Positions 2,963 through 28,752 of a stretch of 37,329 nt of DNA are shown here, piece by piece (the first letter of the stretch is position 1; the number at the start of each line of letters is the position of its first letter). This stretch comes from a virus. The notes under the pieces are model-generated. The model worked only from the letters and a program-made list of their open reading frames with translations. It was not told the DNA's origin and did no database searches. A program made the position numbers and the translations under genes. Location of the stretch: UHGV virus genome UHGV-0230703; one strand, written 5' to 3'.

Positions 2963-2981
2963 CTTTTTGAGGTGAACTTTT

Positions 2982-3284
2982 ATGCTGATGGAAGGAAAAA
3001 CACAATTATGGTTTAAATTTGATCCTTTGAATAGATTTATCAAAGATTTTTATAAAGTATGGGATTCAGAAGTTTTCTTTTTAGCAATCGAAGACAGTTT
3101 ATTAATCAATCTCTACTATTCTAATAAGAACTACTTTAAAATTCCTGCTGCGAAAACGAGAATGAAGAAGGATGTATACTTTTTATTTGATGTGGTGACT
3201 GACGTGCCGGACGCACGTAGCGATCATCGGCGTTATGACTATATAAAGTATACTTTCGTTGATCCAGAAAGGTATAAAGATTAA
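2982..3284 (+). CDS. hypothetical 100-aa protein, second gene of the plus-strand accessory cassette
   Basis: ATG with RBS GAGGTGA; own promoter upstream and hairpin terminator downstream. Confidence 0.7.
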   Translation: MLMEGKTQLWFKFDPLNRFIKDFYKVWDSEVFFLAIEDSLLINLYYSNKNYFKIPAAKTRMKKDVYFLFDVVTDVPDARSDHRRYDYIKYTFVDPERYKD

Positions 3285-3288
3285 AGTA

Positions 3289-3308
3289 GGCTACCTAAAA
3301 AGGTAGCC
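3289..3308 (+). terminator. hairpin GGCTACC-taaaaa-GGTAGCC after the accessory cassette
   Basis: perfect 7-bp inverted repeat 5 nt after the stop codon; U-tract weak (ttttat). Confidence 0.45.
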
Positions 3309-3513
3309 CGGAACGGATTTTATCACCATACTTATGAAAGGAGATATTTTTAAGTTAGTATTAAGATTGTGTAATATGATGATATCTATATTTTATAGTA
3401 TCAGTGCTATAAAATCAAAAATAAGTCACTAATTAACTATCACTCCAATTATAAGTCTTTTTTCCATTATTTTTTACAGTTATATGGTATGCTTTTTAAT
3501 GGCTTCAAATATA

Positions 3514-3575
3514 AAAGAGTTTAAAGCGTAACACACTTATTGGGGAGTGGTTTTTGGGGAACGCTTTAAACTCTT
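3514..3575. other. long hairpin: 15-bp perfect stem (AAGAGTTTAAAGCGT / ACGCTTTAAACTCTT) enclosing a 31-nt G-rich loop containing TTTTTGGGGAA
   Basis: seen directly; no coding potential; a related element is at 4059..4116. Confidence 0.5.
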
Positions 3576-3698
3576 CTTTATTATTATCTCACAATATAAC
3601 TCAAATGTCTTTCTATTTAAAAATCAAAGTAAAACTTTTCAAATATACAGAAGTATAACTATGTGAAACATCCTTTCATTAATCCATAAAAGGATACA

Positions 3699-3723
3699 TA
3701 AAAAAGCCACTCATTTGAGTGGC
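3699..3723 (-). terminator. rho-independent terminator downstream of the tRNA-like gene
   Basis: stem GCCACTCA/TGAGTGGC followed on the minus strand by TTTTTT. Confidence 0.6.
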
Positions 3724-3798
3724 AATGAAGAAAAGCTTTAGCTTGTATAATACTCTTCAAAAAATTCTAACACAGAACAATTCAATTGGCTACGTTAA

Positions 3799-3872
3799 TG
3801 TACCCTGTAGGACTCGAGCCTACGACCGGACGGTTATGAGCCGTCTGCTCTAACCAACTGAGCTAAGGGTAT
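3799..3872 (-). tRNA. tRNA-like gene, anticodon CAT (Met, or Ile via lysidine), with non-canonical A1/C72 and C54
   Basis: minus-strand cloverleaf ATACCCT-TA-GCTC-AGTTGGTTA-GAGC-A-GACGG-CTCATAA-CCGTC-CGGTC-GTAGG-CTCGAGT-CCTAC-AGGGTAC-A; D arm and anticodon arm canonical; CCA not encoded; followed by terminator 3699..3723. Confidence 0.5.
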
Positions 3873-4058
3873 GGAAAGCCACCACAACTCCTGCAAACAA
3901 AAAGAATGGACCTGAGAAAAGATAAATTATTTTTTTCATTCTTTACGTTGCGGTGGCATCTTTATTATTACATATTTAATAGCAAAAAACTAGATTGTAC
4001 TTATTCTTTGTAAAATATATTATTTTATGCTATTATTTCCAAGTCATAAAAAGAAAAA

Positions 4059-4116
4059 AGCTTCAGATACTTATCTTTTTGGGGAAAGACTCTAGGGTGA
4101 GGGAGTATCTGAAGCT
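4059..4116. other. long hairpin: 12-bp perfect stem (AGCTTCAGATAC / GTATCTGAAGCT) with 34-nt loop containing TTTTTGGGGAA, A-run before and T-run after
   Basis: seen directly; shares loop motif and architecture with 3514..3575. Confidence 0.5.
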
Positions 4117-4260
4117 TTTTTCTATGTTTATTATCTCACATAGTTATTTTTTAGTCTATTATTTGCTTAATTTTTTATATTATAATAATTTTATTTGATC
4201 CTTAATTAGTAACGAACTACTCTAAATTGCTAGCAATAATTACGGTATCTAGCTTAAAAT

Positions 4261-4286
4261 AAAAAAACACCTCAAATGAGGTGTTT
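4261..4286 (-). terminator. rho-independent terminator of csp
   Basis: stem AACACCTC/GAGGTGTT followed on the minus strand by a 7-T run, 12 nt after the csp stop. Confidence 0.65.
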
Positions 4287-4297
4287 AAAGTTCAACA

Positions 4298-4495
4298 TTA
4301 TTTTACAATATTTACTGCTTGAGGGCCACGTTGACCTTCTTCAATATCATAAGTAACTGCTTGGCCTTCATCTAAAGACTTGAAGCCTTCTCCCTGGATC
4401 GCTGAGAAATGTGCAAATACGTCATTTCCATCTTCTCCAGTGATAAATCCAAAACCTTTGTCTGAGTTAAACCATTTTACTGTACCGTTATTCAT
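4298..4495 (-). CDS. csp: cold-shock protein, CspA family (65 aa)
   Basis: [18 protein letters not shown]...DVFAHFSAI contains RNP1 (KGFGFI) and RNP2 (VFAHF) motifs; RBS GGAGGA. Confidence 0.95.
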
Positions 4496-6372: not shown

Positions 6373-7347
6373 TTATAGCGTCAAATAAATATCAGAAATC
6401 CGCACGTCATTTACTGCGCCTTCACCGTTTGACTGATTGCATCGGCGCAAAATGATATCAATCTTCTTCCCTTTCATCCAACTAGAATCAAAAGTAACAT
6501 CAAAACCTAGCGCATCGCCACCTTGATAGCCGTATGCCTTTTTGACATCTGGCCGAGCAATCCCTTGAGATTGGATACGTGTTAATTCTTTAGGTGTCCC
6601 ATGTTCCATCACAAGTACGTAAGCATAAGTTCCAATTGCACCTTGTGGTTTATCAGGAACCAACCAACCAGCTACACGAACTGTTTTATCTGTTACCTTT
6701 TTGAAAATATCTAGTTTGCCATAAGCATTTCCCTGATGCGTTGGCGTGCTTGCTGATACTTTATCGTCATGATTTTGATCTTCTGTACTGCCATCAGGTT
6801 TCAATGCGGAATTATCATGGTATTTCTTGATTTGTGAAATAAAGTAATCTTGCATTTGAACAGTGATGGCTGCAGGAACTGCTAACGTAGAATCATAGCC
6901 ACAATGTTCCATCAGTGAACGCTTAGGGCATTCAGTTGCTGAAAATTGATGATGGCATTTGACTGTATCTCGGTTGACTGGCAATCCGTAAAAACGAAGA
7001 TCTTCTGCTGCTTGCCAGAAAGCATTTTGTTCTGCTTGTAGGAAAACTGCTTTTGGTGTTTCACGATTTCCACGCACTTCATATCCGATATAGCTATTAT
7101 TACCATCAGAATTAGCGACATGCCAAGCACGATTATAAGTATCTTCTGTGCGAATAATCGTGTTTTCATCACAGTAATAATGAGCAAATCCTGCTTCTAA
7201 CTGTTTATCTGTCATTCCTGCTAAACGATTCATTTCTTGTTCTGCAGTCGTGTTTGTCCAAGTATTATGGATGACTACACCCTTCACGTCTCCTACACGT
7301 CTACCTGCTACACCACGACATACTGAATTATTGATAATATTGACCAT
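6373..7347 (-). CDS. endolysin: N-acetylmuramoyl-L-alanine amidase (amidase_2/PGRP-like) with C-terminal cell-wall-binding region
   Basis: N-terminal amidase_2-like region (GVVIHNTW...YYCDEN...H...C) and position directly after the holin. Confidence 0.9.
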   Translation of the reverse strand: MVNIINNSVCRGVAGRRVGDVKGVVIHNTWTNTTAEQEMNRLAGMTDKQLEAGFAHYYCDENTIIRTEDTYNRAWHVANSDGNNSYIGYEVRGNRETPKAVFLQAEQNAFWQAAEDLRFYGLPVNRDTVKCHHQFSATECPKRSLMEHCGYDSTLAVPAAITVQMQDYFISQIKKYHDNSALKPDGSTEDQNHDDKVSASTPTHQGNAYGKLDIFKKVTDKTVRVAGWLVPDKPQGAIGTYAYVLVMEHGTPKELTRIQSQGIARPDVKKAYGYQGGDALGFDVTFDSSWMKGKKIDIILRRCNQSNGEGAVNDVRISDIYLTL

Positions 7348-7760
7348 TATTTTTTTCCTCCTAAAGTATTATTTTTGTCTTTTCCTTGTTCTTCAGATGA
7401 ATCTTTTAATTTGCTGAATCGATCTTTCACAAAATCTGGAATTGGGATCCCTAATTGACCTAAATTCTCGATCACCGAGATTCCATAAACAGCAATGTAT
7501 GAAAGCACAAAAGCTGTTGCGACTCCTTCAAAGTTCATGATTTTAAGATAGGGATACGCAATCAGCACAAGCGCCACGACCAGCAAATGCTTTACTACCC
7601 CCATCAGTCCTTTAGTACTATTTGTTTCTTTTCCAGCAAGTCCCTTACAAACTCCTGTAATGATATCCGCAATGACAATCCAAACAAAAATTTGAATATA
7701 AACGTTGCTTACTAGATTTTTAAACTCTGATAACAAAACTAAATTATCAATGATCACCAT
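7347..7760 (-). CDS. holin
   Basis: small protein with TM helices and charged C-terminal tail; ATG 7760 with RBS GGGTGGA; ends 1 nt into the lysin start. Confidence 0.8.
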   Translation of the reverse strand: MVIIDNLVLLSEFKNLVSNVYIQIFVWIVIADIITGVCKGLAGKETNSTKGLMGVVKHLLVVALVLIAYPYLKIMNFEGVATAFVLSYIAVYGISVIENLGQLGIPIPDFVKDRFSKLKDSSEEQGKDKNNTLGGKK

Positions 7761-7792
7761 GTTTCCACCCTTCACTTTCTATTTTTAGCCAT

Positions 7793-20923: not shown

Positions 20924-21847
20924 TTACGCTTTTGGGGAAATCTTCCCAAATGCTTCATCTTTTACAATCATAAATCCAACATCCATTGTTGCACGCAAAG
21001 CAATCAGTTCTTGCTCAAACAAGTTAACTGGGGTTCCATCTTCATTATTTAAAGTAGACAATTGGGCTTCTTCAGAAATCTTAAATGAAATATTATATGG
21101 GATCCCATAAAACATGTAGTTGAAGTCTCCAGCGTAAAGAGTCCCTTTATCTAAAGACTTAAGGTCTACTACTGGTAATCCGTCAATTGTATTAGCAGAG
21201 CGATCATAAATAAACTCAACATTTGACCCGACTGTTTGAGCTGCAGAACGTAATTCTGTACGATTTTTTCGGTTTGAAATAAACGCATTAGGTTCGAATT
21301 CATTTTCTGCTAACTTGTCTTCTAAGGCTAGGATATTATCATAAGTCAATCCGCCTTCAACCACATTCCCCGCACTAATAACTGATTCGTCTAGTGACTG
21401 AGGAAATGGATTTTCTTTATTTAATAAGGCAGCTGCATCAAATTTTTTATAGAAAGCTTCAGCAATTTTTGGCTGCATCTCAGCAAAGAAATCTGATAAT
21501 TTATAATTTAAATATTCACGAGAAACCGGAAGAATGACACCGAGTTTTTTTGCAGTCATCGTAGCTTCTATCCATTTAGGTTTAGATGTTTTAATTTTTT
21601 CACCTTCACCCACCCAATATGCGCCTGGTCCTTCTGCAAAGTATTCAAATTTCTTTTCTTTGTCAGTCATTTCTTCGTATTTTGCTAACTGCATGATCTT
21701 AGAGTTTTCCATAACTTCACTCAAAATGAGCGTATTATATTTATCAGGAATTTTTCCCTCTTTCGTTTCATATACCATAACATTATCTGGATCCCATGTT
21801 TGAGCAAACATTTGCAAGTTCATTGGTAAAAGTTGTTTCTTTTTCAT
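20924..21847 (-). CDS. major capsid protein (HK97 fold)
   Basis: 307 aa after scaffold; RBS AGGAGG; N-terminal MNLQMFA L27-like motif. Confidence 0.9.
   Translation of the reverse strand: MKKKQLLPMNLQMFAQTWDPDNVMVYETKEGKIPDKYNTLILSEVMENSKIMQLAKYEEMTDKEKKFEYFAEGPGAYWVGEGEKIKTSKPKWIEATMTAKKLGVILPVSREYLNYKLSDFFAEMQPKIAEAFYKKFDAAALLNKENPFPQSLDESVISAGNVVEGGLTYDNILALEDKLAENEFEPNAFISNRKNRTELRSAAQTVGSNVEFIYDRSANTIDGLPVVDLKSLDKGTLYAGDFNYMFYGIPYNISFKISEEAQLSTLNNEDGTPVNLFEQELIALRATMDVGFMIVKDEAFGKISPKA
20930..20936 (-). other. -1 programmed frameshift site C_CCA_AAA, 2 codons before the MCP stop
   Basis: MCP frame ...ATT TCC CCA AAA GCG TAA; -1 frame CCC AAA AGC GTA ACG CCT... continues 94 codons through the Ig-like ORF to 20643. 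Confidence 0.65.
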
Positions 21848-27534: not shown

Positions 27535-27882
27535 TTACATAACGTAATACCTTAACTCGGCTAATGCGTTATCAATATTGTCAGATAGTTCTTTTTTGGG
27601 AGCTTTTATATTTTGTTTTGCTACAGTTTCCAACATCAATATAGCATATCCATCAAAAAAGAAACTATTTTCATTCTTTTTCTCCGTTCGTACTAATTTT
27701 GTTTCATTTTGAATCAATTTCAACTCATCATATACTTCTTTCCACTGGTCATAAGCTTTATTTAGTTCCTTATTTATCAAATAAGAATTTGCATTTTCTA
27801 ATTTCTGTATAAATCCATTAATTTGATTTTCAATATCTTTTTTTGTGAAAACTTTTTGTCTTAAATACATTTTGTCTTCCAT
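27535..27882 (-). CDS. hypothetical 115-aa protein, first gene after the ArpU-proximal gene-free region
   Basis: RBS AAAGGGGTGAGAG; ATG 27882. Confidence 0.65.
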   Translation of the reverse strand: MEDKMYLRQKVFTKKDIENQINGFIQKLENANSYLINKELNKAYDQWKEVYDELKLIQNETKLVRTEKKNENSFFFDGYAILMLETVAKQNIKAPKKELSDNIDNALAELRYYVM

Positions 27883-28198
27883 GCACTCTCACCCCTTTCG
27901 TAATATTTTTATTATATCATTTTTTACTATGTACAAATAGGAACAGCTTACATCTACAAACAACAGTTTTTTTAAGTTGAGTAAATACTCAATAAAACCG
28001 AAAGAGTTGCAATTAATAGACAGCAACACATGAACTAACTGTAGGAGCTGACCCCCACATCCTTTAGTTTATTTGCTGCTGTCTATCGAAGCTTAATTAA
28101 ACGATGAGGGAGATTTCCTCCCTTACATTTTATTTTGTCGAGGTCCTGTTTCCTAATCTTTCGACACTACCATAATAACACTGGTAAATGTCTAAAAA

Positions 28199-28642: not shown

Positions 28643-28752
28643 CAAGTCAAACCGCTCCTTTATGTGATATAATAAACTTGTCGGATTTATTACATCAGTC
28701 GAAGTGGTTTGGCTCTTTCGATAATTAATTTTTCTAATGAGGAGTGACACAA

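What the first reader, a model, noticed from the sequence alone, without database searches (positions are those of the whole stretch)
3514..4116. Two look-alike long-stem / large-loop hairpins with a shared TTTTTGGGGAA loop motif bracketing the tRNA-like gene
3514..3575 has a 15-bp perfect stem and a 31-nt loop (...ttggggagtggTTTTTGGGGAAcgc). 4059..4116 has a 12-bp perfect stem and a 34-nt loop (ttatcTTTTTGGGGAAagactctagggtgaggga). The stem sequences differ but the architecture and the G-rich loop motif are shared, and they sit about 540 bp apart on either side of the tRNA-like gene and its terminator. These are not ordinary intrinsic terminators because the loops are far too large. Read on the minus strand, the loops are C-rich (UCCCUCACCC, CCCCAAAAA), like the anti-Shine-Dalgarno seed regions of Firmicutes sRNAs such as RsaE/RoxS. 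Candidates are a small-RNA family, protein-binding structured elements, or processing signals.
Basis: seen in the sequence. Interest (0 to 1): 0.55.

Follow-up and report, generated by a model that had tools for sequence, protein, structure and literature searches.

The report
Paired prophage small-RNA hairpin genes

Summary
Both hairpins exist and are far from chance. HP1 has a 15-bp perfect stem (22 bp with two mismatches) and a 31-nt loop. HP2 has a 20-bp perfect stem, not 12, and a 32-nt loop. The 11-mer TTTTTGGGGAA occurs only in these two loops (0.03 expected).

The window is a temperate Enterococcus phage. The hairpins lie in the non-coding accessory region between the lysogeny and lysis genes.

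HP1 corresponds to sRNA_078 of E. faecium AUS0004 (Michaux 2020). That RNA is 86 nt, has a mapped start site, was probed by northern blot and ranks 10th of 128 sRNAs by coverage. It reads on the window's plus strand, so the loop is G-rich, not C-rich. The hairpin is the body and terminator of the RNA.

HP2 has the same layout: a plus-strand extended -10, a stem of different sequence, the shared loop motif and the shared 3' flank. It is most likely an unreported paralogue.

Over 150 copies occur, all in E. faecium-group prophages. The stems never vary and the loops do.

A well-formed minus-strand promoter also faces each hairpin, so a C-rich antisense RNA is not excluded.

Function is unknown. 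This is a modest finding: a known kind of element with one new member.

The parts
3485..3493 (+). Extended -10 promoter (TGGTATGCT) of the HP1 small RNA
   Evidence: TATGGTATGC is unchanged in 123 of 125 HP1 copies, although the sequence further upstream falls into three different classes. It lies 8-9 nt upstream of the start site inferred from the published TSS.
3501..3588 (+). HP1 small RNA, homologue of E. faecium AUS0004 sRNA_078 (about 86 nt)
   Evidence: Published coordinates are 1821289-1821375 (+), TSS 1821289, coverage rank 10 of 128. The northern probe equals the window's minus strand, so the RNA is plus. The coordinate offset was checked against the end of the DUF5960 gene and the tRNA terminator. 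The fold has z = -4.5.
3515..3575 (.). HP1 hairpin: 15-bp perfect stem (3515-3529 / 3561-3575) and 31-nt loop containing an inner hairpin and two G-runs
   Evidence: The stem arms are invariant in 129 copies and all variation lies in the loop.
3583..3611 (-). Predicted minus-strand promoter (AAGACA-17-GATAAT with TG) facing HP1
   Evidence: Promoter scan. A -35-like WAGACN sits at 17-nt spacing in three flank classes with unrelated spacers. No transcript has been shown.
4008..4036 (+). Predicted promoter (TTGTAA-17-TATTAT with TG) of the HP2 small RNA
   Evidence: Promoter scan. TATGCTATTAT is conserved in 37 of the 38 HP2 copies with enough upstream sequence. It aligns with the HP1 -10.
4043..4130 (+). 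Predicted HP2 small RNA (about 85-90 nt), paralogue of HP1
   Evidence: Same layout as HP1. MFE -37.4 kcal/mol, z = -7.3. No direct expression data.
4052..4123 (.). HP2 hairpin: 20-bp perfect stem (4052-4071 / 4104-4123) and 32-nt loop, with an A-tract and a U-tract that give it the shape of a bidirectional terminator
   Evidence: Variation, including 1-nt indels, is concentrated in the loop.
4130..4158 (-). Predicted minus-strand promoter (TAGACT-17-GATAAT with TG) facing HP2 and the tRNA beyond it
   Evidence: Promoter scan. Homology between phages commonly ends at about 4170-4180, so this promoter belongs to the HP2 module.
3274..3384 (-). Context: homologue of sRNA_077, divergent neighbour of the HP1 RNA. 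A 12-bp stem encloses a 40-nt loop carrying the CU-rich AUCUCCUUUCA
   Evidence: The probe GTAGCCCGGAACGG... begins at plus-strand 3303. The published RNA is 110 nt, minus strand, and overlaps the end of the DUF5960 gene by 11 nt. Fold.
3799..3872 (-). Context: phage tRNA (anticodon CAT), with its terminator at 3706-3723 (-)
   Evidence: ARAGORN and Rfam, 60.8 bits. Terminator scan.

Best explanation
HP1 and HP2 are two paralogous, self-contained small-RNA genes in the accessory (moron) region of a temperate Enterococcus faecium-group phage.

Each unit consists of four parts:
- a plus-strand extended -10 promoter;
- a short 5' tail;
- one long helix that doubles as the intrinsic terminator;
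- a roughly 32-nt partly folded cap that displays G-runs (UUGGGG, UUUUUGGGGAA) in unpaired positions.

The product is an RNA of about 85 nt made constitutively in lysogens.

What is shown: the structure, its conservation, and, for the HP1 orthologue, the start site, strand, length and high abundance.

What is inferred: that HP2 is expressed in the same way, and that the RNA acts in trans through its exposed G-rich loop. It could do so by pairing with C/U-rich RNA, either as a regulator or as a sponge. Candidate partners include any transcript made from the opposite strand of these same cassettes.
For: Structure and shared motifs.

Identity with a published RNA. The Michaux 2020 northern probe for sRNA_078 (TTAAAGCGTTCCCCAAAAACCACTTCCCCA) matches HP1's minus strand, and matches 16 related loci exactly. 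sRNA_078 is 1821289-1821375 (+), TSS-mapped, 86 nt and ranked 10 of 128. It is listed among the northern-validated RNAs.

Strand assignment. sRNA_077 and sRNA_078 are divergent in AUS0004. Only the plus-strand assignment for HP1 fits that geometry. The two promoters predicted independently in the window are 118 nt apart, as are the two published start sites.

Terminator role. Paralogues sRNA_036, 059 and 080 have a short form of about 84 nt ending at the hairpin. For sRNA_036 the hairpin (860326-860385) was called a terminator.

Conservation. There are 125-135 HP1 and 32-39 HP2 copies in IMG/VR and GTDB, all in Enterococcus. The stems are invariant. Indels in the loop exclude coding.

Variant pairs. 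Variable pairs in and next to the inner helix stay paired through G-U on the plus strand (410 of 415 cells) more often than on the minus strand (395 of 415).

HP1 and HP2 share the promoter, loop motif and 3' flank, but their stems are entirely different and both are perfect.
Against: There are no expression data for HP2.

No target or phenotype is known. The published IntaRNA hits are weak (-12 to -15 kcal/mol). My scan of the phage genome found no duplex better than shuffled loops gave.

Within each class there is no compensatory change (0 of 26 pairs). Structural support therefore rests on thermodynamics and on the HP1-versus-HP2 comparison.

The loop varies most, which is unexpected for a strict seed sequence.

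The G-U asymmetry is biased, because the structure used was predicted on the plus strand.

A conserved minus-strand promoter is not explained by this model alone.
Confidence: 0.68

Rival explanations
1. The hairpins are mainly bidirectional intrinsic terminators, or insulators, at the boundaries of mosaic modules where lysogenic and lytic transcription converge. The short RNAs would be by-products of nearby promoters with no function of their own.
For: HP2 has the classic A-tract, stem and U-tract on both strands. The published RNA ends at the hairpin, and a paralogue's hairpin was called a terminator. Homology breakpoints between phages cluster next to the hairpins, at about 3590 and about 4170. 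The stems are invariant while the loops drift.
Against: Each hairpin carries its own conserved promoter immediately upstream, so it terminates almost nothing except itself. The RNA is among the ten most abundant sRNAs. The two loops share an 11-mer that chance does not explain, and the G-runs are retained across alleles. The neighbouring genes already have ordinary terminators (3288-3309, 3706-3723, 4265-4286).
Confidence: 0.17
2. One reading: the functional RNAs come from the minus strand and carry C-rich loops (UCCCCAAAAA, UCCCUCACCC). They would act like UCCC-seed Firmicute sRNAs on ribosome-binding sites, or form the 5' leader of the phage tRNA transcript. The plus-strand RNA might then serve as their antisense antidote.
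For: A well-formed promoter (WAGACN-17-TGnGATAAT) faces each hairpin. It is kept in three flank classes with unrelated spacers. The same -10 type precedes a plus-strand gene at 28663-28675. The minus-strand folds are equally stable and are followed by U-tracts. In related phages the tRNA leader begins with a similar large-loop hairpin whose loop is C-rich in the commonest alleles.
Against: The dRNA-seq list for AUS0004 contains only plus-strand-equivalent RNAs at all four copies and no antisense partner. Minus-strand coverage at the adjacent tRNA terminator is more than 100-fold lower. Rfam shows no match to RsaE/RoxS. The best Listeria rli hit scores 17.6 bits against a threshold of 100. The C-run in the related tRNA-leader hairpin is not conserved (CACTCATAA alleles), and no co-variation with HP1 alleles was seen.
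Confidence: 0.12
3. The hairpins act at the DNA level, as cruciform or single-strand hairpin sites for recombination, integration, packaging or a DNA-binding protein.
For: The stem sequences are strictly invariant and the hairpins sit at module junctions.
Against: In AUS0004 the prophage junction lies between ssrA and the DUF5960 gene, not at the hairpins. The hairpins are far from the terminase region. Transcription of HP1 is documented. No recombinase-type repeats surround them.
Confidence: 0.03

Closest known systems
E. faecium AUS0004 sRNA_078 and its in-genome paralogues sRNA_036, sRNA_059 and sRNA_080 (Michaux et al. 2020, PMC7724050)
   Same: HP1 is this RNA. The probe sequence matches. 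The neighbours are the same (DUF5960 gene, divergent sRNA_077, tRNA terminator). The 118-nt spacing between start sites matches, as do the length and the terminator hairpin.
   Different: The paper lists it as one of 128 candidates. It assigns no family, structure, prophage origin or function. HP2 has a different stem and is not in that list.
Small promoter-plus-terminator RNAs of temperate phages (lambda oop RNA, P22 sar RNA) - comparison from general knowledge
   Same: These are RNAs of about 70-90 nt made from their own constitutive promoter and ended by their own hairpin. They lie in a phage region where opposing transcription meets.
   Different: oop and sar act as antisense RNAs on a defined overlapping mRNA. 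No overlapping mRNA is known here. There is no sequence relationship.
Prophage-encoded sponge or anti-sRNAs (EHEC AgvB/AsxR) and G-track sRNAs such as S. aureus RsaI - comparison from general knowledge
   Same: These are abundant accessory-element RNAs, or RNAs with exposed G-rich tracts, that could titrate C/U-rich seed RNAs.
   Different: No partner RNA has been identified, Enterococci lack Hfq, and nothing was tested here. This is an analogy only.
UCCC-seed sRNAs of Firmicutes (RsaE/RoxS, Listeria LhrC/Rli22)
   Same: If the minus strand were transcribed, C-rich motifs would sit in unpaired loops, including the terminator loop as in LhrC.
   Different: The documented transcript is the opposite strand. 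There is no Rfam match at gathering score.
Bidirectional intrinsic terminators
   Same: The helix is flanked by A- and U-tracts, and the RNA 3' end lies at the hairpin.
   Different: Dedicated promoters sit immediately on both sides.

Membership tests
E. faecium sRNA_078 family (Michaux 2020) | Sequence identity with the published RNA or its probe | tested here: met
   The 30-nt probe matches HP1's minus strand at 28 of 30 positions in the window. It matches 16 related loci exactly.
E. faecium sRNA_078 family (Michaux 2020) | Same genomic context and transcript geometry | tested here: met
   The DUF5960 gene end, the divergent sRNA_077, the 118-nt spacing between start sites and the tRNA terminator all coincide after a single coordinate offset.
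E. faecium sRNA_078 family (Michaux 2020) | HP2 belongs to the family (shared promoter, loop motif, 3' flank and architecture) | tested here: inconclusive
   The shared 11-mer and 13-mer are significant and the module alignment scores 49 against 25 +/- 4. However, one unrelated segment scored 50, the stems are unrelated, and there are no expression data.
Intrinsic (Rho-independent) terminator | Stable stem directly followed by a U-tract | tested here: met
   HP2 has GCUUUUUU on both strands. HP1 has CUUCUUUAUUAUU on plus and UUUUAUAUUU on minus. The simple scan missed both only because it limits the loop to 8 nt.
Intrinsic (Rho-independent) terminator | Transcript 3' ends map at the hairpin | tested here: met
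   From the published data: sRNA_078 ends 86 nt after its start site, and the hairpin of sRNA_036 is annotated as a terminator. This was not measured for this phage.
RsaE/RoxS or LhrC-type C-rich seed sRNAs | Match to the family covariance model | tested here: not met
   No Rfam hit at gathering score. The best related hit, rli24, scores 17.6 bits against a threshold of 100.
RsaE/RoxS or LhrC-type C-rich seed sRNAs | Transcription of the C-rich strand | not testable with these tools
   The promoter is predicted, but no minus-strand sRNA is listed at the four AUS0004 copies. The published TSS table for E. faecium was truncated in the held copy.
Trans-acting base-pairing sRNA or sponge | A defined RNA partner with seed complementarity | tested here: inconclusive
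   No duplex in the phage genome beats shuffled loops. The host genome was not available. Published predictions are weak.
Protein-coding small ORF | Open frame preserved among copies | tested here: not met
   Alleles differ by 1- and 2-nt indels inside the loop. No ribosome-binding site and start codon are conserved between HP1 and HP2.

The most novel reading that the evidence does not exclude
Each cassette is a convergent-promoter switch around one hairpin. In lysogens the plus promoter makes the abundant G-rich RNA. On induction, or through read-in from the lytic strand, the minus promoter makes the perfectly complementary C-rich RNA. For HP2 this C-rich RNA would also head the phage tRNA transcript.

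The pair would form a phage-borne sRNA and anti-sRNA toggle. The shared 11-nt loop motif would allow cross-talk between HP1 and HP2. The toggle could control expression of the phage tRNA, or host mRNAs whose ribosome-binding sites are targeted by C-rich seeds.
Probability: 0.1. Interest if true: 0.6.

Novelty: new member of a known kind. Interest (0 to 1): 0.36.

Why it matters
Vancomycin-resistant E. faecium carries several of these prophages. AUS0004 alone has four copies of the HP1-type gene, and its product is among the ten most abundant small RNAs in the cell, yet no function is known.

This analysis adds four things: the RNA is a phage-borne family; it has a second paralogue (HP2); its architecture is defined; and it is restricted to E. 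faecium-group prophages. That gives a concrete handle for testing whether prophages reprogram this pathogen, or exclude other phages, through RNA. The gain is incremental, because the kind of element is familiar.

Tried and rejected
- Rfam at gathering score and at permissive thresholds found only the tRNA. The miRNA, CRISPR-repeat and rli hits are far below threshold.
- A duplex scan of both loops against both strands of the phage found nothing better than shuffled loops gave. The 1-mismatch site at 20929 is within the chance expectation.
- I looked for further stem classes with the same loop or flank. IMG/VR yielded only HP1, HP2 and one coding-region coincidence. About 20 GTDB hits outside Enterococcus do not form the hairpin and are taken as chance.
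- Within-class covariation is absent.
- I tested whether HP1's apical loop co-varies with the C-rich tRNA-leader hairpin of related phages. The C-run there is not conserved and no co-variation was seen.
- attP at the hairpins was rejected, because the AUS0004 junction lies next to ssrA, upstream of the DUF5960 gene.
- The neighbouring proteins have no PADLOC match to a defence system.
- Small ORFs crossing the hairpins were rejected on the indel evidence.
- Follow-up literature (the Grad-seq study and Sinel 2017) does not mention this RNA.

Full report
**Setting.** The window is a temperate Enterococcus siphophage genome.
- The lysogeny genes are on the plus strand: integrase 637-1788, a PH/SHOCT protein 2093-2887 and a DUF5960 protein 2982-3284.
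- The lytic genes are on the minus strand: holin and amidase at 6373-7775, followed by the structural and replication genes.
- The closest records are Enterococcus phages and E. faecium "plasmids" of 37-41 kb, at 91-96% identity.
- The finding lies in a 1-kb non-coding stretch (3285-4297) where the two transcription directions meet. This stretch also holds a genuine tRNA with anticodon CAT (3799-3872, minus strand) and its terminator. A cold-shock protein gene follows at 4298-4495.

**The observation.** Both hairpins are real.
- HP1 has a 15-bp perfect stem (3515-3529 / 3561-3575) and a 31-nt loop. The helix continues to 22 bp with two mismatches.
- HP2 has a 20-bp perfect stem (4052-4071 / 4104-4123) and a 32-nt loop.
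- Folding z-scores are -6.0 to -8.5 on both strands.
- TTTTTGGGGAA occurs only in the two loops, against 0.03 expected.
- A second motif, TTATTATCTCACA, follows each hairpin; chance predicts only 0.10 matches even with one mismatch allowed.
- A local alignment of the two modules runs from a plus-strand extended -10 (TATGGTATGCT / TATGCTATTAT) to CTCACA. It scores 49, against 25 +/- 4 for shuffles. One unrelated window segment reached 50.
- The upper stems have unrelated sequences, yet both are perfect.

**What HP1 is.** The supplement of Michaux et al. 2020 (PMC7724050) reports dRNA-seq and northern blots of E. faecium AUS0004.
- It lists a probe for sRNA_078, TTAAAGCGTTCCCCAAAAACCACTTCCCCA. 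This is HP1's minus strand: 28 of 30 positions in the window and an exact match in 16 related loci.
- sRNA_078 is at 1821289-1821375 (+). Its start site is mapped, it is 86 nt long and intergenic, and it ranks 10 of 128 by coverage.
- Its divergent neighbour sRNA_077 (1821061-1821171, minus) overlaps the end of a CDS by 11 nt.
- The sRNA_077 probe equals the window's plus strand from 3303.

**Strand assignment for HP1.** Probes are complementary to their RNAs, and the two RNAs diverge in AUS0004. The only consistent assignment is therefore sRNA_077 on the window's minus strand and sRNA_078 on its plus strand.
- A single offset anchored on the DUF5960 stop codon places sRNA_077 at about 3274-3384 and sRNA_078 at about 3502-3588.
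- The same offset places the published tRNA terminator (1821484-1821512) on the window's 3706-3723 hairpin.
- The two promoters I predicted independently imply start sites 118 nt apart, exactly the published spacing.
- sRNA_078 appears in the sheet of northern-validated RNAs.
- Three further AUS0004 copies (sRNA_036, 059, 080) have a short form of about 84 nt plus longer forms of 160-200 nt. For sRNA_036 the authors' pipeline called the 60-nt hairpin a terminator.
- HP1 is therefore the body and terminator of a known, abundant RNA of unknown function, read so that the loop is G-rich.

**HP2.** There are no expression data for HP2. It has a good plus-strand promoter (TTGTAA-17-TATTAT with TG, 4008-4036) at the same distance from the stem as in HP1. 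It also has a U-tract and a very stable fold (-37.4 kcal/mol, z = -7.3). I read it as a paralogous gene producing an RNA at about 4043-4130. This is an inference.

**Conservation.**
- Pattern scans of IMG/VR recovered 125-135 HP1 and 32-39 HP2 copies.
- A GTDB scan found the element only in E. lactis, E. durans, E. villorum, E. mundtii, E. thailandicus and Ca. E. wittei. About 20 hits elsewhere do not form the hairpin.
- When copies were collected by their flanks alone, the stem arms were identical in 129 HP1 copies, apart from rare changes at the loop-closing pairs.
- All substitutions and 1-2-nt indels lie in the loop, which rules out a coding function. The G-runs are largely kept.
- There are two main HP1 alleles...UUUUUGGGGAAC and ...UUUGGGGUGC.
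- RNAalifold finds no compensatory pair within HP1 (0 of 26).
- The variable pairs in and next to the inner helix stay paired through G-U on the plus strand (410 of 415 cells) more often than on the minus strand (395 of 415). This is a weak, plus-biased indicator.
- Homology breakpoints between phages show that DUF5960, sRNA_077 and HP1 travel together (about 2980-3600). HP2 is a separate module (about 4000-4175). Most HP1 copies have no HP2, so bracketing the tRNA is incidental.

**The other strand.**
- TTATTATCTCACA is the reverse complement of an extended -10, TGTGAGATAAT.
- A -35-like hexamer (AAGACA, TAGACC or TAGACT) sits 17 nt away in three flank classes whose spacers are unrelated.
- The same type of -10 precedes a plus-strand gene at 28663-28675.
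- A minus-strand RNA starting at the base of each stem, with C-rich loops, is therefore plausible. For HP2 it would head towards the tRNA.
- It is not among the sRNAs listed at any AUS0004 copy.
- Minus-strand coverage at the neighbouring tRNA terminator is over 100-fold lower than the plus-strand coverage at the hairpin.

**Function.** Nothing is known.
- Published target predictions are weak.
- I found no target inside the phage.
- There is no Rfam family, no adjacent PADLOC-recognised defence gene and no later literature on this RNA.
- The most likely mode of action is a trans-acting RNA that uses its exposed G-runs to pair with C/U-rich RNA or to titrate a factor. A by-product of a terminator or insulator is the main rival.

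**Verdict.** HP1 is already on record and HP2 is a probable new paralogue.

Noticed in passing
window 3274-3384 (-): Homologue of published sRNA_077. It also has a long stem with a 40-nt loop, and the loop carries an anti-Shine-Dalgarno-like AUCUCCUUUCA. It overlaps the 3' end of the DUF5960 gene and always travels with that gene and HP1, which hints at a functional three-part module.
   Followed up: partly
window about 3385-3588 (+): In two AUS0004 paralogues a 200-nt long form starts back-to-back with the sRNA_077 start site and ends at the HP1 hairpin. The window may make this long form as well.
   Followed up: no
window 3880-3959 (-): A third large-loop hairpin (GCCACCGCAAC / GUUGUGGUGGC, loop of about 58 nt) lies within about 8 nt of the 5' end of the tRNA, so the tRNA has a long structured leader.
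   Followed up: no
L002 4576-4700; L099 5749-5870: In related phages the tRNA leader is different. A promoter TTGACA-18-TAAAAT is followed by two large-loop hairpins (arms GTTATCGCATA and TTGTTGCCACA). The first has a C-rich loop in the commonest alleles.
   Followed up: partly
window 3799-3872 (-): The CAT-anticodon tRNA has an A1-C72 mismatch at the top of the acceptor stem. Homologues are annotated as tRNA-Met in some records and tRNA-Ile in others.
   Followed up: no
L003 2036-2122: Three tandem 29-bp copies of the stretch that contains the HP1 plus-strand -10 (ATATGGTATGCTTCTTAGTGAATTCAAAT). In this allele the promoter is triplicated.
   Followed up: no
Phage records OR846730.1, OR848098.1, PQ554527.1: Records named Listeria phage LM 4-11-1 / LM 4-14-1 and Acinetobacter phage D2SVT are 91-95% identical to this Enterococcus phage region. 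The host attribution looks doubtful.
   Followed up: no
window 27589-27663 and 28016-28086: Two more long inverted repeats (27- and 23-nt arms, loops of 21 and 25 nt) lie in the gap between the early and late genes.
   Followed up: no
AUS0004 1820183-1821071 (literature): The AUS0004 copy lies directly downstream of the tmRNA gene ssrA. This suggests that this phage group integrates next to ssrA and that attP lies between the integrase and DUF5960 genes.
   Followed up: no
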